Shown here piece by piece: positions 84 to 20,678 of a stretch of DNA of 21,318 nucleotides (position 1 is its first letter; the number at the start of each line of letters is the position of its first letter). The notes beneath the pieces were generated by a model. The model worked only from the letters and a program-made list of their open reading frames with translations, did no database searches and was not told the origin of the DNA. This stretch comes from Minisyncoccota bacterium. GTDB taxonomy: Bacteria > Patescibacteriota > Minisyncoccia > Phycocordibacterales > UBA12079. The stretch spans positions 1 through 21,318 of the forward strand of contig JAGMBS010000007.1 of NCBI GenBank assembly GCA_023129575.1. The letters run 5' to 3'. A program made the translations under genes and the position numbers.

Positions 84-360
84 CAAATACGAGCAAAGCG
101 AGAATTTTTGCCTGGGGGAGAAAGCCGACTGCTTGGCTTTCGTGGGGAATCGAAAGTCGGAATATGTTGCGACTGGAAGGAGCAACAATGAGACGGGGTC
201 GCAAACACTTATGATTTTGGAGCCCGCAGGGCGAACAAAATCATTAGTGATTTGTGTGCGATTCCTCTCCTCGGCACAAGAACCAAATAAGCTTGCTTTT
301 TCTTTTGTTTTGGGATAATCTGAAAATTAGAAAGTACCTAAACATAAACCGTAACAAAAA
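84..360 (+). ncRNA. GC-rich, highly structured non-coding region: candidate small RNA or structured leader of the downstream gene. An SRP-RNA-like GGAA-capped hairpin is noted; identity unknown.
   Basis: No convincing ORF. Local GC is well above the window average. Nested perfect stems include GCCGACT/AGTCGG, CTTTCG/CGAAAG, TTGCGAC/GTCGCAA and GCCC-gca-GGGC. The segment TTGC-GA-CT-GGAA-GG-A-GCAA loosely resembles the SRP RNA helix 8 motif GGAAGGAAGCAGC. Confidence 0.3.
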
Positions 361-1094: not shown

Positions 1095-1150
1095 AAATAA
1101 TTTTTTTACAATCAAAATAAAATCAAAACTCTAAACTTTGCCTTACCAAT

Positions 1151-1188
1151 CCCGACGGTCTCGTCGGAACCCCGACCTTGCGTCGGGG
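1151..1188. repeat. GC-rich double-hairpin element, copy 1 (CCCGACGG..CGTCGG + CCCCGAC..CGTCGGGG), sitting 5' of ATTGGTA in a degenerate tRNA-5'-like context
   Basis: About 85% identical to copy 2 at 12651-12689. GC-rich in an AT-rich intergenic region. Lies about 55 nt upstream of tRNA-Thr. Flanks on the minus strand read GCCAGCATATCTCAG[element]ATTGGTAAGG. Confidence 0.5.
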
Positions 1189-1227
1189 CTGAGATATGCT
1201 GGCGTACCAGTTACTATCAACCAATAA

Positions 1228-2990: not shown

Positions 2991-3140
2991 GAGGTCCGAC
3001 CTCTGAATTACCATAAATTTGAACTTTGGCTACTTTATGCTTGAAGTCCAACCTCTGAATAATCACATATACGCAATCTTTAGGCGCTTTGTTTTGCTTT
3101 ACTACAATTGAGGTCGGACTTCTTTAAATGGTCGGACCTC
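2991..3140. repeat. cluster of 4 REP-like palindromic units, GAGGTC[C/G]GACCTC
   Basis: Units: gaggtccgacctc 2991-3003, gaagtccaacctc 3044-3056, gaggtcggacttc 3110-3122, ggtcggacctc 3130-3140. The last two lie inside the 3' end of prfB. Confidence 0.6.
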
Positions 3141-4077: not shown

Positions 4078-4150
4078 GCGCGTGTAGCTCAGCTGGTAGA
4101 GCGCTACACTGATAATGTAGAGGTCTCTGGTTCAAATCCAGGCACGCGCA
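4078..4150 (+). tRNA. tRNA-Ile(GAT)
   Basis: Acceptor GCGCGTG/CACGCGC, D-arm GCTC-AGCTGGTA-GAGC, anticodon arm CTACA-CTGATAA-TGTAG (anticodon GAT), T-arm CTGG-TTCAAAT-CCAG, discriminator A, no encoded CCA. Confidence 0.9.
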
Positions 4151-4188: not shown

Positions 4189-4893
4189 TTACTGACAGCA
4201 ATACCATTTCCAACCGCTCTGATGGCAACCCGCGTTATAGGCCTCGCTTTGCGAGCGATAACAATGGCCATTACAATGGTATTTTGCGTAAGACGGACAG
4301 CAGCCGCTATTTACCCAACAATAACCCGGCGAACAGTGCCGGCACCCTATGCTGACCTGACTACCTCCGCCGCCAGAAGCGCTACTTTTACCGCTAAAGG
4401 TTTGATAAATGGATTGGCACATCCTATCTTCGGTATTTGGATATTTTCCGGTGGCGCAATGATAACTGTAAAGAACTAAGTATCCCACAAACGCAATAAC
4501 AACTATCTCGATAATTAAAGCAATAATTGAATGTTTGCGAACCTTAGAAAATTCGTCTGTGGGGGCTTGCTCGGGAGTCGGCGGTATTGGTTGTTGTTCC
4601 TCTGGCGCGACCGGCTGATTGGCATACTTGGCGAGTTTAGTATCATTCTCCAGATGCCAAACGCCAAACATAATATAAAGAAAAGTGCTCCAAGCTATAC
4701 TTACGATTAAATAATACAAGATTAGTCCTATCGCGATATAAGTAATATCTCTCTTGAATATATCAAAGTCAAAATTGTCGCTTACAAGCAAAAAAAATGC
4801 GGCCAAAACGACTAAAGATGGAATTATCCAAAGAATTATTTTTGCGACCCTGTACCACCGTTTTTGTTCTATTTGTGATTTTTTCATAGACAT
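4189..4893 (-). CDS. hypothetical membrane protein (3 predicted TM helices) with a Cys-rich C-terminal domain
   Basis: 234-aa ORF. Hydrophobic helices at residues ~18-40, ~52-75 and ~125-150. The last ~70 residues carry 14 Cys (CRHCSPGYCWVNSGCCPSYAKYHCNGHCY...GCHQSGWKWYCCQ). A Pro/Glu-rich linker is present. Confidence 0.6.
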   Translation of the reverse strand: MSMKKSQIEQKRWYRVAKIILWIIPSLVVLAAFFLLVSDNFDFDIFKRDITYIAIGLILYYLIVSIAWSTFLYIMFGVWHLENDTKLAKYANQPVAPEEQQPIPPTPEQAPTDEFSKVRKHSIIALIIEIVVIAFVGYLVLYSYHCATGKYPNTEDRMCQSIYQTFSGKSSASGGGGSQVSIGCRHCSPGYCWVNSGCCPSYAKYHCNGHCYRSQSEAYNAGCHQSGWKWYCCQ

Positions 4894-4975
4894 AATTTTT
4901 AACTATAAACTATTTTCTGTATAATATAATAATTTAACTTGAAAGAAAAGTAAATATGTTGAAAAAATCACAAAT

Positions 4976-5014
4976 AGACAAAAACCCCGCGAAACTTCGT
5001 TTTGCGGGGTTTTT
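4976..5014. terminator. bidirectional rho-independent terminator
   Basis: An A-run precedes stem CCCCGCGAAAC / GTTTTGCGGGG (loop TTC), followed by a T-run; U-runs are available on both strands. Confidence 0.65.
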
Positions 5015-5020
5015 TAAGCC

Positions 5021-5096
5021 AAATGAGCCAAATACACCATTTGGCTCATTCGGCTCTTTTAAAAAATCTCAAAAATCATCCGATTTTTGAGATTTT
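5021..5096 (-). terminator. two further tandem hairpins after the stop of the 5096..5914 gene: an 11-bp perfect stem AATGAGCCAAA/TTTGGCTCATT, and TCTCAAAAATC/GATTTTTGAGA with flanking T/A runs
   Basis: Both stems are perfect. The second directly abuts the stop codon at 5096 and is followed on the minus strand by TTTTTT. Confidence 0.5.
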
Positions 5097-5914
5097 TATT
5101 GTTTTTTGGTGTAACGGACACCTTTGCCTATATTTCCGATTTGAGTTATTTTTTGTTCTTTTTCTAAAATATCTAAATACCGAACAGCGCTTCTGCGAGC
5201 AGTCCTTAATAATTTTCGGACATCCGAGTTTGAAAGCTCTGTTTTTGTTTCAAAAAGCGACATAATTTTATCCAATTTTTTCCTTTTCCTCTCCTGAATT
5301 TTCGCCCGCGCTTTAATCAACAATTTTTGAACAAAATTAGCCGTGCCCGTCGGAGTGTCAGCGACGATTAGGGGATCAGTTTTATAAATGATTTTTTCAA
5401 CCATTTTAATCTCTGGTTGTGACGAAATTTCTTGAGTTTGCTTGTCCTCCGTAGCTTTCCTGTCCTTTGTAGCTTCAGCGGAGGAGGAAGCAATGGCGGG
5501 CTCAACTTTTGAAATTTCAGCGGAAGCAGATTCAACTTTTGGAATTTCAACAGGCGGTAAATTTTCCGCCTGCGGTATTTCCTCAACTTTTTGCTCTTGT
5601 TCTTGTTCAGCCGATTTCATCGCTTCAGTTTCAGTTTGCAAAATTTCTTCAACCTGTTCATTTTCAATTTTTTCTTCCGCGACATTCTCAACAACTTCCG
5701 ATTTCTCAACAAGAGGATTTTTTGGCTCCGCCAAAAAATCCTCCCCCAAAACTTCTTCATTTTTCTCAACCGCTAAATTTTCAGTTTGTCCGTCATTCTC
5801 CGCAACTTCGGCAACCTCGGCAACAGGTTCAACCACTTCCAATTCCGGCAGAACCGAAACAGGATTTTCTTCCGTTATCTTATTTTCCAAATTTTGATTT
5901 TCTTTTGGTGGCAT
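5096..5914 (-). CDS. acidic low-complexity protein with a C-terminal DeoR-like winged helix-turn-helix
   Basis: The N-terminal ~200 aa are E/V/P/A-rich repeats (EVAEVAEVAEN, PVEIPKVESASAEISKVEP). The C-terminus ...NSDVRKLLRTARRSAVRYLDILEKEQKITQIGNIGKGVRYTKK fits the DeoR-type HTH pattern (xxTxRRDLxxLExxGxlxRxxGg). It is a paralog of the C-terminus of 6217..6534. Confidence 0.6.
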   Translation of the reverse strand: MPPKENQNLENKITEENPVSVLPELEVVEPVAEVAEVAENDGQTENLAVEKNEEVLGEDFLAEPKNPLVEKSEVVENVAEEKIENEQVEEILQTETEAMKSAEQEQEQKVEEIPQAENLPPVEIPKVESASAEISKVEPAIASSSAEATKDRKATEDKQTQEISSQPEIKMVEKIIYKTDPLIVADTPTGTANFVQKLLIKARAKIQERKRKKLDKIMSLFETKTELSNSDVRKLLRTARRSAVRYLDILEKEQKITQIGNIGKGVRYTKKQ

Positions 5915-6180
5915 AGTTTAGTTTCCAATGTTTGTTATTGTTTGTTTTAATTCATTAAATTGTTCTTGGTTCATATAAATTTTACTGTTGTTTCTCAACA
6001 CTTCATAGCTAAAAAACCTGATATTCCAATTGCCCAAATTGCTATCCTTTTTGCTTCCTTTGTTAATCTAAATCCATTTTTCTAGTCGTCAGTTTTTTGC
6101 GAAGTCTGTCTTTCCCAAAATTAATCGTTTCTATGTATATATCTTTTTCTTCTATATTTTCCATATTTTTAATTTTTTAA

Positions 6181-6202
6181 TTAACTCAACCCGTTGAGTT
6201 AA
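6181..6202. repeat. perfect 22-nt palindrome TTAACTCAAC-CC-GTTGAGTTAA (CTCAAC-NN-GTTGAG family)
   Basis: Self-complementary. Lies 15 nt downstream of the stop of the 6217..6534 gene, at the promoter-distal end of the R-M cassette. Confidence 0.5.
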
Positions 6203-6216
6203 TCATTCAAAAATTA

Positions 6217-6534
6217 TTATTGCAAGGTATAAAATACATTTGTTCCGATTTTGCCGTGCTGGGTTAATTTTCCGTTTTTTTCCAATTCATCCAAATATCT
6301 TTCCGCGGTAGCGTGCGAAACCCCGCACAATTTCTCAACATCATTATTCGTTATTTTCGGCATCGGTTCCGCATTTTGTCCGCGTCCATTCCGCATTAGA
6401 TTCAAAATCTTTTCTTTATTTTCCCTTTTCTTTTTACTTTGCCCAAAAATCAAACACTTTTTCTTTTTGGAACCAAAATAACCCCCAATAATAATTCCTA
6501 CTATTCCAACTAAAATTAAAACTAAACAGTTCAT
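6217..6534 (-). CDS. membrane-anchored winged-HTH protein (N-terminal TM helix plus C-terminal DeoR-like HTH), 105 aa
   Basis: N-terminus MNCLVLILVGIVGIIIGGYFG is a TM helix followed by a KKKK stop-transfer. The C-terminus ...ITNNDVEKLCGVSHATAERYLDELEKNGKLTQHGKIGTNVFYTLQ is a DeoR-like wHTH. The start lies 6 nt after the methyltransferase stop on the same strand. Confidence 0.6.
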   Translation of the reverse strand: MNCLVLILVGIVGIIIGGYFGSKKKKCLIFGQSKKKRENKEKILNLMRNGRGQNAEPMPKITNNDVEKLCGVSHATAERYLDELEKNGKLTQHGKIGTNVFYTLQ

Positions 6535-6540
6535 ATTTTT

Positions 6541-7653
6541 TTATTTCTCCATTAAAAATAAATATTCGTGATATTTACTGTCATCAGCAATCCAATCATT
6601 TGTCCAACACATATTTGCCATAACATTTTTTTTATAATCTATCTCAACAATTTTTAACAATTTTCCTGATTCGTTGATTATATCGCTCAATTCTTGTTTC
6701 GTGGCTCTGCCGCCGGAACTATATGATAATAAAATATAACGAGCGTCTATTTCTTGAATTAATTTATGCAATGCTTTCATCGCAAGAAATTTTTTGTCTT
6801 TATCTTTTCTAAATTCTTCAAACACAGAAGCAGAAATTTTATCCCTGCTATCTATCCGGCGATTTACTTTTCCAAACACAGTTGGTTTGTCGTGTTTAAT
6901 AATTGTGGTCCAAATATGATAATAGGAAGTATACCTCACACGGCTTGGCGGCATCTTTTCATTATTTGAACCATACGGAGGATCTAAATAAACAAAATCA
7001 AATTTATTTTTTGACACGGTATTAAAAATATCATCACAAATTATTCTATGTCCGCCATTGTGATCAAAACGATTAGGTAACTTCAAAAATAAGTTATTGT
7101 AAGAACGAGGAGACCACTGCGATAAATATGATACATAATGCCCAAGAGTGCTATCAACCGAATCAAGCGCATAGATTAAACTTGTTAAAATTACACACTT
7201 ATCTTCCCATTGTAAATTTAATTTTTCGACTTCCTTCCTAATAGCGTCCAATTTTCGAGTGTTTTTTGCTTGAAATGGCCGTTTTGTTCCTGTCAATTCC
7301 GCTCCATAATGTTCGGTGTACCAACCATCATATCCCTCTAAATTATTTAGATGATTTATTATTTTTTGATAAAAACCGTCTGTTTTTTTTGATTTCAAAT
7401 AACAAGTCGCAAAAACCTCTGACCAAATTGCAATATCATTTGAAGTTGTGTCATATCCTAATTGAGCAAACGCTTGAGATACTCGCGTAGAACCGCTAAA
7501 TCCATCCAGCACATTTTTGATTCCGTCCAACCCACTCATTATATCAATAATGTACGGCAAAATTTTGAGTTTTGAACCGGCATATTTTATACCCTCTGTT
7601 TGTGGAATTATTGGAATAGGCGTGTTAAAAATATTTAATTGCTCAGTAATCAT
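6541..7653 (-). CDS. DNA N6-adenine methyltransferase, D12/Dam-like (alpha) class
   Basis: KYAGSKLKILPYI matches the Dam KWAGGKxxLL motif. DGFSGSTRV is an FxGxG-like AdoMet motif. FVYLDPPYGSN is the DPPY catalytic motif IV. The start overlaps the stop of the upstream ORF by 4 nt. Confidence 0.85.
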   Translation of the reverse strand: MITEQLNIFNTPIPIIPQTEGIKYAGSKLKILPYIIDIMSGLDGIKNVLDGFSGSTRVSQAFAQLGYDTTSNDIAIWSEVFATCYLKSKKTDGFYQKIINHLNNLEGYDGWYTEHYGAELTGTKRPFQAKNTRKLDAIRKEVEKLNLQWEDKCVILTSLIYALDSVDSTLGHYVSYLSQWSPRSYNNLFLKLPNRFDHNGGHRIICDDIFNTVSKNKFDFVYLDPPYGSNNEKMPPSRVRYTSYYHIWTTIIKHDKPTVFGKVNRRIDSRDKISASVFEEFRKDKDKKFLAMKALHKLIQEIDARYILLSYSSGGRATKQELSDIINESGKLLKIVEIDYKKNVMANMCWTNDWIADDSKYHEYLFLMEK

Positions 7654-8513
7654 AATGTTTTTAAATGATCAATATCTTTTTGCAAAATATCATTTGCCAA
7701 TTTGTGTCCTTGTCTGGTGCTATTTAACGCTAGACCGAATAATCGGACAAGGGTGTGATTGTGAGAATAATCTATCCATCCGTTTGTTAATGAATCAAAA
7801 TAAAATTTGGCTTTCTGAGTATGTGTCCACAAACCCCGTTGCAAAGCATTCGCGGAAGCCCCACCGTATCGAACTTCACAAATATAATTACCGTCCGAAT
7901 CAATAAACATAAATATCGGGTGTTTTCTTCCTTTTCTTTTTATGACACTTTGCTTTGAAAAATCAAATTTTTTATTTTTACCAACAAAAATAATCCGTTG
8001 AGTTTTTCGTATCGCTTTTTTGTGGTCAAAAATCATTATATTGCATCTCTGATTTTTTTCATCATAAATAAGCGGCATAATATTGATTGCGTTAAAATCC
8101 TCAAATTCTTTCGCCTTAAAAATTTGCCCGATTTGTTTTTTGTCCTTTATATCTCGGCCTTGCAATACAAGAAATGGAAATAATTTTTGACGGCTATCTG
8201 TTGAAAGTTGAAGAGGGCCATCACCGTACGCCTTTAAACTCACGGGAAATTCCGCTTTTGTTATTTCGTTTATAATTACAATATCTTCCTCGTGTTCTTT
8301 CGCTCGAAATTTATCTTTACCGACATGCATACTTCTAAAGTCATACATAAATTGATTGATAAATTCAACCATGCCAATTTCCGCCAAATCGCCATGTGTT
8401 TTATTCCCGATCAAACGCATAGTAAAAATGTTGGAAAGTGTATTAATTACCAAATGTTTTTGTTTTCCAACTAATAACTTAAATCTTGTTTTAAAATCTT
8501 TGTATGTTGCCAT
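7650..8513 (-). CDS. putative type II restriction endonuclease partner of the Dam-like methyltransferase; family not recognised
   Basis: 287-aa ORF translationally coupled to the methyltransferase by a 4-nt overlap. No similarity to any known family was recognised by eye, including the DpnII/MboI family. The role is assigned by gene context only. Confidence 0.45.
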   Translation of the reverse strand: MATYKDFKTRFKLLVGKQKHLVINTLSNIFTMRLIGNKTHGDLAEIGMVEFINQFMYDFRSMHVGKDKFRAKEHEEDIVIINEITKAEFPVSLKAYGDGPLQLSTDSRQKLFPFLVLQGRDIKDKKQIGQIFKAKEFEDFNAINIMPLIYDEKNQRCNIMIFDHKKAIRKTQRIIFVGKNKKFDFSKQSVIKRKGRKHPIFMFIDSDGNYICEVRYGGASANALQRGLWTHTQKAKFYFDSLTNGWIDYSHNHTLVRLFGLALNSTRQGHKLANDILQKDIDHLKTL

Positions 8514-8761
8514 AATTATTTAATTAAATTTTAAATCTTTATTTTCCTCTTTTTCAACTTCATCAATTTCTTCAATATCATCACGGTCAATATCCAATGC
8601 CTCCGCTATTGTCTCAAAAAACATTCCTTGTTCTCTCAATTCCTCGCAAGTTTCGGATAAGCATTTAATTTGAATTGTTATTTTATCCACAATTTTTAAT
8701 TAAAAAAATGATTAAATCTTTAACAAAGTTGATAATAGTATAGCATATTTTTAATTTCACC

Positions 8762-8785
8762 AACGGCTCAACTCGTTGAGCTGTT
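8762..8785. repeat. near-perfect 24-nt palindrome AACGGCTCAAC-TC-GTTGAGCTGTT, a copy of the 765-788 element
   Basis: 23 of 24 positions identical to 765-788. Lies about 250 nt upstream of the R gene. Confidence 0.55.
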
Positions 8786-8819
8786 GGGCAAAAGGTTCGC
8801 GCAAAGCGCGCAATCTCAT

Positions 8820-8869
8820 CACAACGATTTTCCCAAATAGCTCAATCGCTATTTGGGAAAATCGTTGTG
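8820..8869. repeat. perfect 22-bp inverted repeat with a 6-nt loop (CACAACGATTTTCCCAAATAGC tcaatc GCTATTTGGGAAAATCGTTGTG)
   Basis: Exact reverse-complement arms. No U-run on either side, so not a classical terminator. Preceded by a GCGC-aaa-GCGC mini-hairpin at 8799-8809. Confidence 0.6.
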
Positions 8870-8996
8870 GGTAACCTCATGCTGGAACCATATTTTGTTA
8901 AGTCCAGTAAGGTTATTTTTAATAGATTTATTTTATCACTTCGAAGGTCCTCGTGCACCTTTTCTTTTTTAGTTTTGACTTAAGACATGTAAATTA

Positions 8997-9611
8997 CTAG
9001 TCGATTTTAATTTCGTGTATCCATGTGTTGTTAGGCGAAATTGTTGAGTAAACAAAGGTTCTATGCTCTGTTTCATCTTCAGTGTTAGTTTTGTAGTAAA
9101 TTGGCAGGGCTAATGGGAATGATAAAATGTTTTCATTAAATTTTTTAAAATTATCAGCAATTTCTTCTTCTGTTAATTCGCCCATCCTCACTTTAAGGAC
9201 TATAAAAAATGTTTCTCCGCTTGCTAAAGCGATGGTGCCTAGTGATTTTTTATACTCAATTTTTTTCAAATCTTGAAATTGGTCTGTTCTTCCTGAAAGA
9301 GAAACACCATCCGGCATTCTTATTTCTTTGGCTGGTTGCCCACCATAATTCTTAAGCTCAAATTGAAACTCTAAAATCAGCTCTGTTTCCTGTGACTCAA
9401 TCCTTAAGTAGTTGCCTGTTTCTGAAAATTTTACAGACCGTGCCGATATATAAGGACGATTTTCTAACTCAAAGTTTTGTTGTGAAGCGGCAAAAGCATC
9501 ATTTGCAATTGTATTGCTTTTCCGAGATTCAACATAACTAAACCCTGATATAATCAAAGCGATTAAAGAAATTACTATTGGAATCCAAATTATATTTTTT
9601 TTTAATAACAT
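8997..9611 (-). CDS. hypothetical protein with N-terminal TM anchor (204 aa)
   Basis: Continuous ORF with hydrophobic helix IIWIPIVISLIALIISGF near the N-terminus. No recognised domain. Confidence 0.55.
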   Translation of the reverse strand: MLLKKNIIWIPIVISLIALIISGFSYVESRKSNTIANDAFAASQQNFELENRPYISARSVKFSETGNYLRIESQETELILEFQFELKNYGGQPAKEIRMPDGVSLSGRTDQFQDLKKIEYKKSLGTIALASGETFFIVLKVRMGELTEEEIADNFKKFNENILSFPLALPIYYKTNTEDETEHRTFVYSTISPNNTWIHEIKID

Positions 9612-9656
9612 TTTAATCTATTTAATACAAATAATTATAACGGGACCTCTAAAATG

Positions 9657-9743
9657 CGGAGAGGACAGGATTCGAACCTGCGGTGGAATTTCTTCCACAC
9701 TCGCTTTCCAAGCGAGCGCCTTCGACCGCTCAGCCACCTCTCC
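9657..9743 (-). tRNA. tRNA-Ser(GGA)
   Basis: The reverse complement reads GGAGAGG-TG-GCTGAGCGGTCGAAGGC-G-CTCGC-TTGGAAA-GCGAG followed by the long variable arm GTGGAAGAAATTCCAC, then GCAGG-TTCGAATC-CTGTC-CTCTCC-G. Anticodon is GGA. The type II variable arm fits Ser. Confidence 0.9.
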
Positions 9744-9797
9744 GTTTATATTTTAATTGTGTAACAAATTTTTTAAAATTTTCAAATTCTATTTTAA

Positions 9798-9886
9798 TTC
9801 CACCGCGGTCGAACGAGTTCGTCCACCTTTGCTTTGCTACGGATGAATGCTCCCAAGGTCTCATTCATCCGCTCAGCCACCTCTCC
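9798..9886 (-). pseudogene. degenerate tandem copy of tRNA-Ser: intact 5' 18 nt, then a hairpin in place of the D-loop 3' part and anticodon arm, then a decayed 3' half
   Basis: GGAGAGGTGGCTGAGCGG is identical to nt 1-18 of the functional gene. It is followed by hairpin GGATGAATG-(12 nt)-CATTCATCC at 9841-9870. The downstream GTGGACGAAC..CGTTCGACC is a degenerate variable/T-arm. Confidence 0.45.
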
Positions 9887-9904
9887 AATATATTTCGCTC
9901 AAAG

Positions 9905-10023
9905 ATCTCATATTATCGCCGCTTCCTTTCAGTCAGCGAACGGTGGCTTCGCGTTCGCCACATCCGCTTCGCTCCTGATAAAATATGAAGCAGTTCATAT
10001 TTTATCCACTCAGCCACCTCTCC
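9905..10023 (-). pseudogene. second degenerate tRNA-Ser copy, carrying a hairpin with the GAAGCAGTTC loop in place of the anticodon region
   Basis: The 5' end GGAGAGGTGGCTGAGTGG matches 17 of 18 positions. Hairpin GATAAAATATGAA-GCAG-TTCATATTTTATC at 9977-10006 has a 13-bp perfect stem. A downstream segment GTGGCGAACGCGAAGCCAC-C-GTTCGCTGAC is a degenerate variable arm and T-arm. Confidence 0.45.
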
Positions 10024-12310: not shown

Positions 12311-12373
12311 AATTCAACACAAATTCTCGCTTGCCCGTCCGCCCAAGGCGGATTAGGGCTTTGCTCAAATTTG

Positions 12374-12455
12374 TGCCGGAGAGAGGACTTGAACCTCCAT
12401 GGATTGCTCCACTAGTTCCTAAGACTAGCGCGTCTACCAATTTCGCCACTCCGGC
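12374..12455 (-). tRNA. tRNA-Leu(TAG)
   Basis: Reverse complement: GCCGGAG-TG-GCGAAATTGGTAGACGC-G-CTAGT-CTTAGGA-ACTAG, long variable arm TGGAGCAATCCATGGA, GGTTCAAGTCC, CTCTCCGGC, A. Anticodon TAG; type II tRNA. Confidence 0.9.
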
Positions 12456-12597
12456 ATGTGTATTATTTAATTTTTAATATTATTGTCATATTTTCGGAAT
12501 TAGTGGAGACACTCCACTATCCCTATCGCCTGTTCCGCTCCGCTCCACATCGGCGATTTTTTGCTTCCCACCCAAGGCGGGCAGGCGCAAAAATCGG

Positions 12598-12717
12598 ATG
12601 AAAAATGAAGCAGTTCATTTTTCATTCACTCGACTAGCGCGTCTACCAATCCCGACGGTTCCGTCGGGACCCCGACTTATCGTCGGGGTTTCGCCACTCC
12701 GGCATGTGTATTATTTA
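12598..12717 (-). pseudogene. duplicated module upstream of tRNA-Leu: 14-nt upstream context, tRNA-Leu nt 1-31 with a 39-nt insertion in the D-loop, then a terminator-like hairpin
   Basis: TTCGCCACTCCGGCATGTGTATTATTTA is repeated (12441-12468 and 12688-12715). The 5' segment GCCGGAGTGGCGAA[39 nt]ATTGGTAGACGCGCTAGTC is otherwise identical to the functional gene. It ends in hairpin ATGAAAAATGAA-GCAG-TTCATTTTTCAT at 12598-12625, followed on the minus strand by CCGATTTTTG. Confidence 0.5.
12651..12689. repeat. GC-rich double-hairpin element, copy 2, inserted in the D-loop (between GCGAA and ATTGGTA) of the duplicated tRNA-Leu 5' segment
   Basis: CCCGACGG-TT-CCGTCGGG is a perfect 8-bp stem. CCCCGAC-TTAT-CGTCGGGG is a 7-bp stem. 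The intact tRNA-Leu 160 nt away lacks the insertion. Copy 1 at 1151-1188 also sits immediately 5' of ATTGGTA. Confidence 0.55.
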
Positions 12718-12760: not shown

Positions 12761-12796
12761 AGTACTCCGACTACTCAATTGAGTAGTCGGAGTACT
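12761..12796. promoter_or_regulatory. perfect 36-nt palindrome AGTACTCCGACTACTCAA|TTGAGTAGTCGGAGTACT, 28 nt upstream of the -35 box
   Basis: Exact reverse-complement halves. Centred about 75 nt upstream of the predicted transcription start of the SPFH operon. A candidate operator for a dimeric regulator, or a long hairpin. Confidence 0.55.
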
Positions 12797-12823
12797 CAAT
12801 ATTGATTTTGTCAGCGCGCATAA

Positions 12824-12959: not shown

Positions 12960-13034
12960 ATGAACAAAAAAACAAAAATCATTTTTGATTGAAAGCCCTA
13001 ATCACCCTTTGGGTGACGGGCAAAGGAGGAAAAA

Positions 13035-14672: not shown

Positions 14673-14900
14673 AAGAGGTTTGACCTTGATAGTGACGCTA
14701 AAAGAAGTCCGACCCCAATTGTGGTGCTACAAGAGGTCCGACCTAAATGGTGGTTTAATAAAGTTTGGTGTGTAAGGAATTATTATAGTTTAAGTTAATA
14801 GGTCGGACCTCGAGTGGCTAAACAATTATGCTTTGCATAAGTTAAGAGGTCGGACTTCATAAACACCGCACTTCAGTAACAATTCAGAGGTCGAACCTCG
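14673..14900. repeat. cluster of 6 REP-like units (GAGGTC[C/G]GACCTC family)
   Basis: Units: gaggtttgacct 14675-14686, aagaagtccgacc 14702-14714, aagaggtccgacct 14731-14744, ggtcggacctcg 14801-14812, aagaggtcggacttc 14844-14858, cagaggtcgaacctcg 14885-14900. The first three and last three are in inverted orientation. Confidence 0.65.
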
Positions 14901-15729: not shown

Positions 15730-15808
15730 GAGGTCCGACCTCAACAATGGTAAAATAATGAGGAATGGCCAAATCTTGTGTTTTGTATAAGTTAAGAGGT
15801 CGGACCTC
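15730..15808. repeat. inverted pair of REP-like units (GAGGTCCGACCTC ... GAGGTCGGACCTC) bracketing a 53-nt spacer
   Basis: Arms at 15730-15742 and 15796-15808, with flanks AAGAGG.. and ..CCTCTT, could form a ~15-bp stem. Lies between the SBP-like gene stop and the pilin gene start. Confidence 0.6.
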
Positions 15809-20600: not shown

Positions 20601-20678
20601 GAGGTTCGACCTCTTAACTGTTATTAAAATATAAATTAGTCAACTTGCATCATCATACTGCTTTCGAGGTCGAACCTC
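20601..20678. repeat. inverted pair of REP-like units (GAGGTTCGACCTC ... GAGGTCGAACCTC) bracketing a 52-nt spacer
   Basis: Arms at 20601-20613 and 20666-20678. Same geometry as the 15730-15808 pair, with an unrelated spacer sequence. Lies between the PBP gene stop and the small membrane gene start. Confidence 0.6.

What the first reader, a model, noticed from the sequence alone, without database searches (positions are those of the whole stretch)
12598..12717. 39-nt GC-rich double-hairpin element inserted at the same D-loop position in two different tRNA-derived fragments
A duplicated copy of the tRNA-Leu(TAG) 5' end, including 14 nt of upstream context, is identical to the functional gene over nt 1-31. 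The only difference is an exact 39-nt insertion (CCCGACGGTTCCGTCGGG + ACCCCGACTTATCGTCGGGG, two tandem hairpins) between GCGAA and ATTGGTA of the D-loop. A second copy of the element (about 85% identical) sits at 1151-1188, again immediately 5' of ATTGGTA, inside a degenerate tRNA-5'-like sequence upstream of tRNA-Thr. Two independent copies at the same site suggest a sequence-specific miniature insertion element or a structured RNA module. The Leu fragment ends in a terminator-like hairpin followed by a U-run, so it may be transcribed as a discrete small RNA.
Basis: seen in the sequence. Interest (0 to 1): 0.8.

Follow-up and report, generated by a model that had tools for sequence, protein, structure and literature searches.

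The report
Tiny double-hairpin insertion in tRNA-derived leaders
A 39-base GC-rich DNA element that folds into two hairpins was inserted, after the fact, at the same D-loop nucleotide of leftover partial tRNA gene copies in an ultra-small (CPR) bacterium, and it most likely belongs to a previously undescribed family of selfish palindromic mini-elements.

Summary
Upstream of tRNA-Leu(UAG), on the minus strand, lies an exact copy of 14 nt of promoter context plus tRNA nt 1-33. It is interrupted only by a 39-nt double hairpin, E (12650-12688). A second E, 85% identical, sits at 1150-1188 in a decayed tRNA-Thr-like 5' copy.

E is a later insertion. A relative with 70% protein identity has the same upstream module without E. 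E belongs to a dispersed Patescibacteria family. Nine copies are held, and one of them lies at the same nt 15/16 (R|TTGG) of a tRNA-Pro pseudo-copy in another organism. Others lie in-frame in recA, TatD and M13-peptidase genes. The stems covary, the loops drift, and there is no target-site duplication. No Rfam family matches.

The host "fragments" are conserved tandem pseudo-tRNA leader modules. They are also present twice at tRNA-Ser. They share a covarying hairpin with an invariant ACUGCUU apex and a common motif.

Best reading: E is a REP/RPE/GC-cluster-like selfish palindromic element that is tolerated only in non-essential tRNA copies. How it moves is unknown. Self-cleavage and discrete-sRNA claims remain untested.

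The parts
12650..12688 (-). E copy 1: 39-nt GC-rich double hairpin (7-bp stem with 5-nt loop, then 8-bp stem with 4-nt loop), inserted between nt 15 and 16 of the tRNA-Leu 5' copy
   Evidence: (D9). It is absent from the orthologous module in L015.
1150..1188 (-). E copy 2: 85% identical to copy 1, with the differences in the loops plus one C->T change that gives a U.G pair. It lies between nt 15 and 16 of a decayed tRNA-Thr-like 5' copy.
12689..12717 (-). Exact duplicate of 14 nt of upstream context (including the -10-like TAAATA/AATAAT) plus tRNA-Leu nt 1-15
   Evidence: D5, 100%; the promoter-like site of the live copy lies in the duplicated stretch
12632..12649 (-). Exact duplicate of tRNA-Leu nt 16-33 (TTGGTAGACGCGCTAGTC). 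Homology to the live gene ends in the anticodon loop.
12597..12631 (-). H1: a conserved 12-bp hairpin with an invariant A-CUGC-UU apex. It is followed by CCGAUUUUUG.
   Evidence: D17; 7 of 12 pairs changed on both sides
12554..12596 (-). H2: hairpin CGAUUUUUG...CAAAAAAUCG. Its loop carries a second small GC hairpin insert (12564-12587, of the CCGCCTTGGGTGG type), where the relative has only TAGAA.
12470..12553 (-). The rest of the conserved leader cassette X: motif GGAGCGGAGCGGA (12534-12546), GGCGAUA, TAGGGATAGTGGAG (resembles tRNA-Leu nt 35-49), the hairpin GTGGAG..CTCCAC, and then the promoter-like AT-rich run of the live gene
12373..12469 (-). Live tRNA-Leu(UAG) (12373-12455) with its 14-nt upstream context (12456-12469). 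It has no insert.
   Evidence: D5
1124..1149 (-). tRNA-Thr-like nt 16 to about 41 (TTGGTAAGGCAAAGTTTAGAGTTTTG), 3' of E copy 2
   Evidence: Similarity to tRNA-Thr was read by eye; the local alignment alone is not significant.
1189..1203 (-). tRNA-Thr-like nt 1-15 (GCCAGCATATCTCAG), 5' of E copy 2
9744..10023 (-). Two tandem pseudo-tRNA-Ser leader modules of the same kind, without E. The 5' 18-20 nt of tRNA-Ser occurs at 10023 and 9886. In the first module H1 follows (9977-10011) and then GGAGCGAAGCGGA (9963-9975). In the second, a related hairpin follows.
   Evidence: (D7, D17, D18)
110..276 (+). Related structured unit downstream of tRNA-Leu(CAA): GCCTGGGG, then an H1-type hairpin (CUGC loop), then about 130 nt, then CCTCTCCTCGGCA (a tRNA-Leu-like 3' end). 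The two ends pair with each other.
   Evidence: MFE -72.1, z -5.8; no Rfam match

Best explanation
E is a non-autonomous, selfish miniature palindromic element made of two adjacent GC-rich hairpins. It belongs to a family dispersed in Patescibacteria (CPR).

In this genome E was inserted secondarily, cleanly and without target-site duplication. The insertion point is between nt 15 and 16 (R|TTGG) of the D-loop region in two tRNA-derived sequences that are not themselves tRNAs. Both are tandem pseudo-tRNA leader copies upstream of the live genes: one upstream of tRNA-Leu(UAG), and an older, decayed one upstream of tRNA-Thr.

**Inferred, not shown.**
- The element has a strong preference for the exposed D-loop sequence or structure of tRNA genes.
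- Hits in essential single-copy tRNA genes are lethal, so E is seen only in dispensable copies.
- Copying acts on a hairpin-forming single strand. It is done either by a trans-acting HUH/Y1-type enzyme or by template switching / short-patch conversion.
- E has no function of its own at this locus and is simply co-transcribed with the leader.
For: **Insertion polarity.**
- The live tRNA-Leu and the orthologous leader module in L015/L016 (HD protein 70% identical) lack E. Everything around it aligns.

**A family, not a one-off.**
- The pattern scans of two collections found 5 more copies.
- Relaxed scans of the held loci added a TatD copy and a peptidase copy.
- All copies are in Patescibacteria-type contigs.

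**Same site three times.**
- Leu: GCGAAA|E|TTGGTAGA.
- Thr-like: TCTCAG|E|TTGGTAAG.
- tRNA-Pro pseudo-copy in L003: GCGCAG|E|TTGGCTAG.
- All three have the same orientation.

**Hairpins are maintained.**
- 100% of cells pair.
- The two outer pairs of hairpin 2, which my search pattern did not force, covary (CG/AU/UA and CG/GU/UA/UG).
- Differences between copies fall in the loops.

**Selfish-DNA behaviour.**
- In-frame copies occur in recA, TatD and M13 peptidase. E-positive and E-negative peptidase alleles occur in two separate clades.

**Only in dispensable copies.**
- In about 40 kb of the source genome, the only two copies are in pseudo-tRNAs.

**Context.**
- The genome carries several other short GC-palindrome families.
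- A second small GC hairpin was inserted into another loop of the same module.
- Relatives carry a RAYT-like Y1 HUH gene at this very locus.

**No known RNA family.**
- Nothing in Rfam fits.
Against: - Copy number is low: 2 in about 40 kb here, and few hits in very large collections. However, my pattern was narrow and missed at least two variants.
- No transposase is linked to E. The Y1 gene of the relatives is flanked by different palindromes and is absent from the 40 kb held of the source genome.
- In the peptidase, E replaces the same 30 nt in two clades, and a few flanking codons look co-converted. This fits patch recombination better than transposition.
- Non-tRNA copies show no TTGG flank, so the target rule is not general. 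CAG| on the left occurs in only 4 of the 7 copies found by the pattern scans.
- 8 of the 9 copies held are in the sense orientation to local transcription, and G.U pairs work only on that strand. This leaves room for an RNA-level role.
- The three D-loop cases may not be fully independent, because the Leu and Thr copies share one genome.
Confidence: 0.6

Rival explanations
1. E is a functional RNA module, for example a protein-binding or nuclease-blocking double hairpin. It would have been recruited into a functional leader RNA consisting of the tRNA 5' half plus the X cassette, transcribed upstream of tRNA-Leu.
For: - The hairpins are maintained with covariation and with sense-strand-only G.U pairs.
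- 8 of the 9 copies held are sense to transcription.
- The host module is conserved. X is 84.6% identical between genomes, with only one mismatch in the central stretch of about 60 nt, against 79% for the neighbouring coding DNA.
- H1 covaries.
- Promoter-like -10 elements are duplicated with the fragment.
Against: - The orthologous conserved module works without E.
- The same element occurs inside unrelated protein-coding genes and in a 3' UTR.
- The loops are free to vary.
- No partner or common genomic context is visible.
- No Rfam match.
Confidence: 0.15
2. E does not transpose. A single old D-loop insertion spreads among tRNA-derived sequences, and between homologous genes, by short-patch gene conversion or template switching that uses conserved flanks.
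For: - In the peptidase gene E replaces the same 30 nt in two clades. The 12 nt to the left of E in L026 resemble L004 (8/12) more than they resemble L026's own E-less relative (3/12).
- Concerted evolution is active at the Leu locus. The fragment tracks its own genome's tRNA at position 6 (A/A here, G/G in L015).
- The shared right flank TTGGTA provides microhomology.
- There is no target-site duplication and no linked transposase.
- Yeast mitochondrial GC clusters are reported to move between species by recombination at conserved flanks (PMC4478555).
Against: - The left flanks of the three D-loop copies share nothing (GCGAAA, CTCAG, GCGCAG).
- The Leu flanks are 100% Leu-type right up to E. 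A conversion tract would therefore need to end exactly at the element boundary.
- Six or seven nt of one-sided homology is very short for conversion.
- Copies in recA, TatD and intergenic DNA have no homologous donor context.
Confidence: 0.17
3. E is an intron-like element that is removed from the RNA, so the interrupted copy is a real tRNA gene or tRNA half.
For: - Patescibacteria tRNA genes often carry group I introns (PMC13011429).
- E sits in a loop of the tRNA fold.
Against: - At 39 nt, E is far below group I or group II intron size.
- There is no Intron_gpI match or any ribozyme match.
- The Leu copy has no tRNA 3' half after nt 33, the Thr copy is decayed, and the L003 copy lacks the 5' acceptor strand.
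- An intact intron-less gene lies next to each copy.
Confidence: 0.03
4. The feature is a chance similarity or an assembly artefact.
For: There are only two copies in the window. Some short-read contigs break at or next to E (L019 ends inside E copy 2).
Against: - Zero matches are expected in shuffles.
- The locus is identical in independent assemblies and samples.
- Related copies exist in other organisms.
Confidence: 0.02

Closest known systems
Mitochondrial GC clusters / double-hairpin elements (yeast GC42; Allomyces DHEs, Paquin et al. 2000, as cited in PMC4478555)
   Same: - A short (about 40 nt) GC-rich palindromic unit in an AT-rich, reduced genome.
- It folds into hairpins.
- Its distribution is sporadic, including inside genes.
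- Substitutions concentrate in the loops.
- Exchange by recombination at conserved flanks is reported (PMC4478555).
   Different: - E is bacterial (Patescibacteria), not organellar, and unrelated in sequence.
- E has no flanking AG/ACT direct repeat, unlike GC42.
- E recurs at one defined tRNA D-loop position.
- Copy number looks much lower.
Rickettsia palindromic elements (RPEs)
   Same: - Selfish palindromic repeats in a reduced genome.
- They insert in-frame into protein genes and also into a structured RNA gene (53 in CDSs and one in the tmRNA gene of R. bellii, PMC1458961).
   Different: - RPEs are several times longer (about 100-150 nt, from my own knowledge).
- RPEs are high-copy and restricted to Rickettsia.
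- E is a 39-nt double hairpin with a D-loop site preference.
- At the tRNA loci, E is found only in non-functional tRNA copies.
REP/BIME/REPIN elements with RAYT (Y1 HUH) transposases
   Same: - Short imperfect palindromes.
- Several palindrome families populate the intergenic DNA here.
- A distant RAYT-like Y1 gene occupies the orthologous locus in relatives.
   Different: - E is two direct tandem hairpins, not an inverted REP doublet.
- E lacks a GTAG-type head.
- E also occurs inside CDSs.
- E is low-copy in the DNA held.
- The palindromes that flank the relatives' Y1 gene are not E.
Partial tRNA gene copies left by site-specific integration (att repeats, CIME-like mini-elements, tandem accretion)
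   Same: - The host structure is a direct repeat of a tRNA segment (47 nt for Leu, about 35 nt for Ser).
- The repeats bracket a short cassette.
- The arrangement is repeated in tandem at tRNA-Ser.
- tRNA gene fragments are a recognised category in prokaryote genomes (PMC9897764, abstract only).
   Different: - The repeat is the 5' part plus promoter, not the usual 3' part.
- The bracketed cassette is only 135-250 nt and carries no recombinase.
- The cassette is conserved between genomes.

Membership tests
REP / REPIN-RAYT system | A short imperfect palindrome that can form a hairpin | tested here: met
   two stems with 100% of cells paired and z-scores of -3.5 to -5.0.
REP / REPIN-RAYT system | Tens to hundreds of mostly extragenic copies per genome | tested here: inconclusive
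   There are 2 copies in about 40 kb of the source genome. The whole MAG could not be read. Family members also lie inside CDSs.
REP / REPIN-RAYT system | Units arranged as inverted doublets (REPIN/BIME), with a conserved tetranucleotide head | tested here: not met
   The alignment shows two hairpins in direct tandem. No conserved head lies outside the stems. The left flank is CAG in only 4 of 7 copies.
REP / REPIN-RAYT system | A cognate RAYT gene flanked by the same palindromes | tested here: not met
   There is no Y1 gene or remnant in the 40 kb held. Relatives have a Y1_Tnp at this locus, but with different palindromes. The NCBIfam RAYT score is 18-26 bits against a cut-off of 80.
Classical MITE | Terminal inverted repeats plus a target-site duplication | tested here: not met
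   The insertion is clean. GCGAAA|E|TTGG compared with the live GCGAAATTGG shows no duplication beyond a one-base ambiguity.
RPE-like selfish palindromes | In-frame insertion in protein genes and presence in structured RNA genes | tested here: met
   In-frame copies occur in recA and TatD (L001) and in M13 peptidase (L004, L026), with E-less close homologues. Copies also occur in tRNA-derived sequences.
RPE-like selfish palindromes | Sequence homology to Rickettsia RPE families | not tested
   No RPE models were available. The length (39 nt) and the taxon differ.
Mitochondrial GC cluster / double-hairpin element | A short GC-rich unit in an AT-rich genome that folds into two hairpins, with sporadic presence/absence between relatives | tested here: met
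   The window is 32-45% GC and E is about 70% GC. Presence/absence between relatives is shown.
Mitochondrial GC cluster / double-hairpin element | Organellar location, and short flanking direct repeats for GC42 | tested here: not met
   The host is a Patescibacteria MAG, and there is no flanking repeat.
Group I tRNA intron (common in Patescibacteria) | A group I ribozyme core, insertion in the anticodon loop of an otherwise complete tRNA, and a length above 200 nt | tested here: not met
   There is no Intron_gpI match at E<=10. E is 39 nt and lies in the D-loop. The host copy lacks a 3' half.
Known self-cleaving ribozymes / any Rfam family | A match to a covariance model | tested here: not met
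   (gathering thresholds) found only tRNAs. One search (E<=10) gave nothing credible over 12597-12717.
att-type tRNA repeat of an integrated element (for the host fragment) | A direct repeat of a tRNA segment that brackets foreign DNA, with a recombinase gene in the bracketed DNA or nearby | tested here: inconclusive
   The direct repeats are present (D5 and D7). The bracketed DNA is 135-250 nt with no gene. No integrase lies in the 40 kb held. The cassette has no match in the phage or plasmid collections.

The most novel reading that the evidence does not exclude
E is a mobile element that specifically recognises the D-arm of tRNA genes, as single-stranded DNA or as RNA. Under this reading, the conserved tandem 5' pseudo-copies kept in front of single-copy tRNA genes in these tiny genomes would serve one of two roles. 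They could be functional leader RNAs. Or they could be landing pads that absorb such insertions and spare the essential gene. The X cassette with its invariant ACUGCUU hairpin would then be a new tRNA-linked RNA or DNA device rather than debris.
Probability: 0.1. Interest if true: 0.85.

Novelty: new variant of a known kind. Interest (0 to 1): 0.55.

Why it matters
Short palindromic parasites are known from proteobacteria, rickettsiae and mitochondria, but I found no report of them in Patescibacteria in the few literature searches run here.

This family is unusually small. It behaves like RPEs, with in-frame copies in proteins. Three of the nine known copies sit at one and the same nucleotide of three different tRNA-derived sequences, and two sit at one and the same codon position of a peptidase gene. 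That pattern points to a targeted or homology-assisted copying process that could be worked out.

The work also exposes conserved tandem pseudo-tRNA leader modules, at Leu and twice at Ser, that evolve in concert with the live gene. This matters for three practical reasons:
- tRNA annotation in CPR genomes;
- assembly, since contigs break at these repeats;
- the question of how single-copy tRNA genes are expressed and protected in minimal genomes.

Tried and rejected
- **Group I intron or ribozyme:** no Rfam match at gathering thresholds or at E<=10. Size and position are also wrong.
- **Assembly artefact:** rejected, because contigs from several samples are identical.
- **Phage or plasmid origin of the leader module:** no blastn match in either collection. 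Viral contig scans for E and for the X motif were empty.
- **A local transposase:** tblastn with the relatives' Y1 proteins found no remnant in the 40 kb held.
- **X as a small ORF:** the possible 16-18 codon frame is not kept between the window and L015. A 1-nt indel preserves the hairpin but not the frame (read).
- **SRP, 6S or tmRNA identity for the 110-276 unit:** no Rfam or ARAGORN hit.
- **Orthologous tRNA-Thr and tRNA-Leu(CAA) loci in relatives:** the only relative's contig ends before the tRNA.
- **More distant HD-gene relatives:** they have lost synteny with tRNA-Leu.
- **X derived from the 3' half of its own tRNA:** only borderline support (p about 0.04-0.05 for Leu and Ser-U2, not significant for the others).
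- the genome and metagenome scans were both spent on one rather narrow E pattern, which missed at least two variants (L026 and the L001 TatD copy).

Full report
**1. What is in the sequence**

The window comes from a Patescibacteria (CPR) genome. Its proteins are found 100% identical in MAG GCA_030639765.1, which NCBI labels "Candidatus Pacebacteria bacterium", and in a 106-kb ENA scaffold. GC content is 32-45%.

ARAGORN and Rfam find tRNA-Thr (1021-1094, minus), tRNA-Ile, tRNA-Ser(GGA) (9656-9743, minus) and tRNA-Leu(UAG) (12373-12455, minus). A tRNA-Leu(CAA) is cut off at the left edge of the window.

On the minus strand, upstream of tRNA-Leu(UAG), there is an exact second copy of 14 nt of upstream context plus tRNA nt 1-33. 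It is interrupted only by a 39-nt insert at 12650-12688 (family D5). A second insert copy lies at 1150-1188 (family D9). It differs at six positions, five of them in loops; the sixth turns a C-G pair into U.G.

Each copy folds into two abutting hairpins, one of 7 bp and one of 8 bp. The motif is not expected by chance (0.00 in shuffles). The locus is base-identical in independently assembled contigs from several samples and in a 99%-identical contig. The only corrections are that identity runs to nt 33, and that the structural boundary places the element between nt 15 and 16.

**2. E is a secondary insertion**

The closest available relative is L015/L016 (HD protein 70% identical, same gene order). 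Upstream of its tRNA-Leu it has the same architecture:
- promoter-like context;
- tRNA nt 1-33;
- a hairpin with a CUGC loop;
- the hairpin CGAUUUUUG..CAAAAAAUCG;
- GGAGCGAAGCGGAACAGGCGAUAGGG;
- a GTGGAG/CTCCAC hairpin;
- the live tRNA.

It has no E. The live genes also lack E. E-less is therefore the ancestral state.

The same comparison shows a second small GC hairpin (CCGCCTTGGGTGG type, 12564-12587) inserted in the loop of the second hairpin in the window lineage.

**3. E is a family**

One scan each of the species-representative genomes and of the JGI metagenomes, using a strict double-hairpin pattern, gave five further copies. Relaxed scans of the fetched loci added two variants that the pattern had missed.

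| Copy | Context |
|---|---|
| L003 | tRNA-Pro pseudo-copy, see below |
| L001 (Saccharibacteria MAG) | in-frame at the recA N-terminus |
| L001 | in-frame in a TatD-like gene, 55-nt variant |
| L004 and L026 | in-frame in M13 peptidase genes |
| L002 | 3' UTR of rpmE |
| L005 | intergenic, antisense to both neighbouring genes |

In L003 an intact tRNA-Pro is followed 17 nt later by a second copy that lacks the 5' acceptor strand. In that copy E sits between GCGCAG and TTGGCTAG. This is again between nt 15 and 16, and in the same orientation as in the window.

Over seven copies every stem cell pairs. The two outer pairs of hairpin 2, which my pattern did not constrain, covary (CG/AU/UA and CG/GU/UA/UG; 0 of 500 shuffles reach the covariation score). 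The inner stem columns were fixed by the search pattern and say nothing. G.U pairs exist only on the strand written here, and 8 of the 9 copies are sense to local transcription.

**4. Recurrence at identical sites**

Three different tRNA-derived sequences (Leu, Thr-like, Pro), in two organisms, carry E at nt 15/16.

In the M13 peptidase, E (42 nt) replaces the same 30-nt segment in L004 and in L026/P0130. These two proteins are only 56% identical. Each has a closer E-less relative: P0123 at 78% and P0131 at 83%. The few codons to the left of E in L026 resemble L004 more than they resemble L026's own relative. This hints at patch transfer by recombination.

So E reaches the same places repeatedly. 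Whether this happens by enzyme targeting or by homology-assisted copying cannot be settled here.

**5. The host is not debris of a single event**

The "tRNA fragment" belongs to a module that recurs.
- tRNA-Ser has two tandem upstream copies of its 5' 18-20 nt (D7).
- The first Ser module is followed by a hairpin that is 86% identical to the Leu one (D17), and then by GGAGCGAAGCGGA. That motif occurs only in the Leu and Ser modules.
- Hairpins with a CUGC loop and six or more base pairs occur three times in about 40 kb. Each comes directly after a tRNA 5' piece.
- Across four copies, 7 of 12 pairs change on both sides, while the apex ACUGCUU is invariant.
- The third CUGC-loop hairpin is in a 167-nt unit downstream of tRNA-Leu(CAA) (110-276). 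Its ends look like tRNA-Leu ends and pair with each other (MFE -72 kcal/mol, z -5.8, no Rfam match).

The Leu cassette is 84.6% identical between the window and L015, with only one mismatch in the central stretch of about 60 nt. The adjacent coding DNA is 79% identical.

The fragment also tracks its own genome's tRNA: position 6 is A in both window copies and G in both L015 copies. This is concerted evolution or constraint.

Parts of the cassettes weakly resemble the missing 3' parts of their tRNAs (p about 0.04-0.05). The modules may therefore be old tandem duplicates of whole tRNA genes that acquired loop insertions. An alternative is a miniature att-bracketed element that supplies a promoter plus a 5' half. 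The 5' polarity, the tiny size and the conservation are unusual for that reading. I leave this open.

**6. Surroundings**

Relatives L012 and L015 carry a 217-229 aa Y1 HUH gene between the Band_7 gene and tRNA-Leu. It matches Pfam Y1_Tnp, and its best NCBIfam hit is REP-associated tyrosine transposase, far below the cut-off. Species-specific palindromes lie around it and, in-frame, inside it.

The window lacks the gene and any remnant of it. It keeps a perfect 36-nt palindrome (12762-12797) that is homologous to the gene's 3' flank in L015. The genome also holds many GAGGTCSGACCTC palindromes in intergenic clusters. Short palindromes are thus a general feature of this lineage, and an HUH enzyme is a plausible mobiliser. 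It is not linked to E.

**7. How it most likely works**

Shown:
- E is a secondary, precise insertion without target-site duplication.
- It belongs to a dispersed family.
- Its hairpins are maintained.
- It recurs at tRNA nt 15/16.
- It tolerates, or exploits, in-frame positions in proteins.

Inferred:
- E is a selfish palindromic element.
- The D-loop preference, combined with lethality in essential tRNA genes, explains why it is seen only in spare copies.
- Copying acts on a hairpin-forming strand, either through an HUH-type enzyme or through template switching / short-patch conversion.

I put 0.6 on this reading. I put 0.17 on pure conversion spread, 0.15 on a functional RNA module, and a few percent on intron-like or artefact readings.

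**8. Comparison with known systems and novelty**

In behaviour, E is closest to three groups:
- mitochondrial GC clusters and double-hairpin elements (PMC4478555);
- Rickettsia palindromic elements (PMC1458961);
- more loosely, REP elements.

It fails the defining tests for REP/RAYT membership: no inverted doublet, no cognate RAYT, and it is not purely extragenic. It also fails for MITEs, because there is no target-site duplication. It is not a Patescibacteria tRNA intron (PMC13011429).

I rate it a new variant of a known kind. Interest is moderate (0.55). It is raised by the repeated same-nucleotide D-loop placement and by the conserved pseudo-tRNA leader modules. It is lowered by the small sample and the unknown mechanism.

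Noticed in passing
window 9744-10023 (minus strand): tRNA-Ser(GGA) is preceded by two tandem copies of its own 5' 18-20 nt. Each copy is followed by a hairpin and about 100 nt of structured sequence. The relative L015 has a plain tRNA-Ser with no such copies.
   Followed up: partly
window 110-276 (plus strand): A 167-nt unit lies 26 nt downstream of tRNA-Leu(CAA). It has tRNA-Leu-like 5' and 3' ends that pair with each other and a CUGC-loop hairpin. It folds very stably (z -5.8) and has no Rfam or ARAGORN match. It may be an undescribed structured RNA or a heavily remodelled pseudo-tRNA.
   Followed up: partly
window 12326-12362 and 12992-13028: Two 37-nt inverted repeats (81% complementary) bracket the whole tRNA-Leu intergenic region. 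Each lies just upstream of a divergent gene start (the HD hydrolase and the Band_7 protein). Each has the form AAAGCCCTAATC + small GC hairpin + GACGGGCAA(A/G)(G/C)GAG, so they look like a shared 5'-UTR element.
   Followed up: no
window 2991-3140, 14704-14900, 15730-15808, 20601-20678: At least a dozen copies of the 13-nt palindrome GAGGTCSGACCTC occur in intergenic clusters, which is REP/BIME-like. It is absent from relatives L012 and L015.
   Followed up: partly
window 12762-12797; L015 193-900; L012 4768-5472: Relatives carry a RAYT-like Y1 HUH gene at this locus. Species-specific palindromes lie around it and in-frame at the same two positions inside it. The window has lost the gene but keeps a perfect 36-nt palindrome that matches the gene's 3' flank in L015.
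   Followed up: partly
window 4189-9611: A low-GC (32-34%) segment lies between tRNA-Ile and the 3' end of tRNA-Ser. It carries a Dam-like D12 methyltransferase, an overlapping 287-aa ORF of unknown function, DUF977-like regulators and small unknown ORFs. It looks like an island with a restriction-modification system. In L015 only about 190 nt of non-coding DNA separates htpX from tRNA-Ser, whereas the window has a GGDEF gene and the two pseudo-tRNA-Ser modules there.
   Followed up: no
L003 250-510: A small GIY-YIG-type nuclease ORF sits immediately upstream of the duplicated tRNA-Pro that carries E. It was identified from the sequence by eye, not by a family search.
   Followed up: no
L019 (ends at 4140), L025 (ends at 2370), L008-L011: Several short-read contigs of this organism and of a relative end inside or right next to E or the pseudo-tRNA repeats. 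This suggests that these repeats break assemblies.
   Followed up: no
L003 590-650: The first hairpin of E (CCCCGAC..GTCGGGG) matches the 3' end of tRNA-Pro (CACCCCGACCA) plus the complement-compatible 5' end (tCGGGG). A tandem tRNA-Pro junction could give rise to such a hairpin. This may be a coincidence.
   Followed up: no
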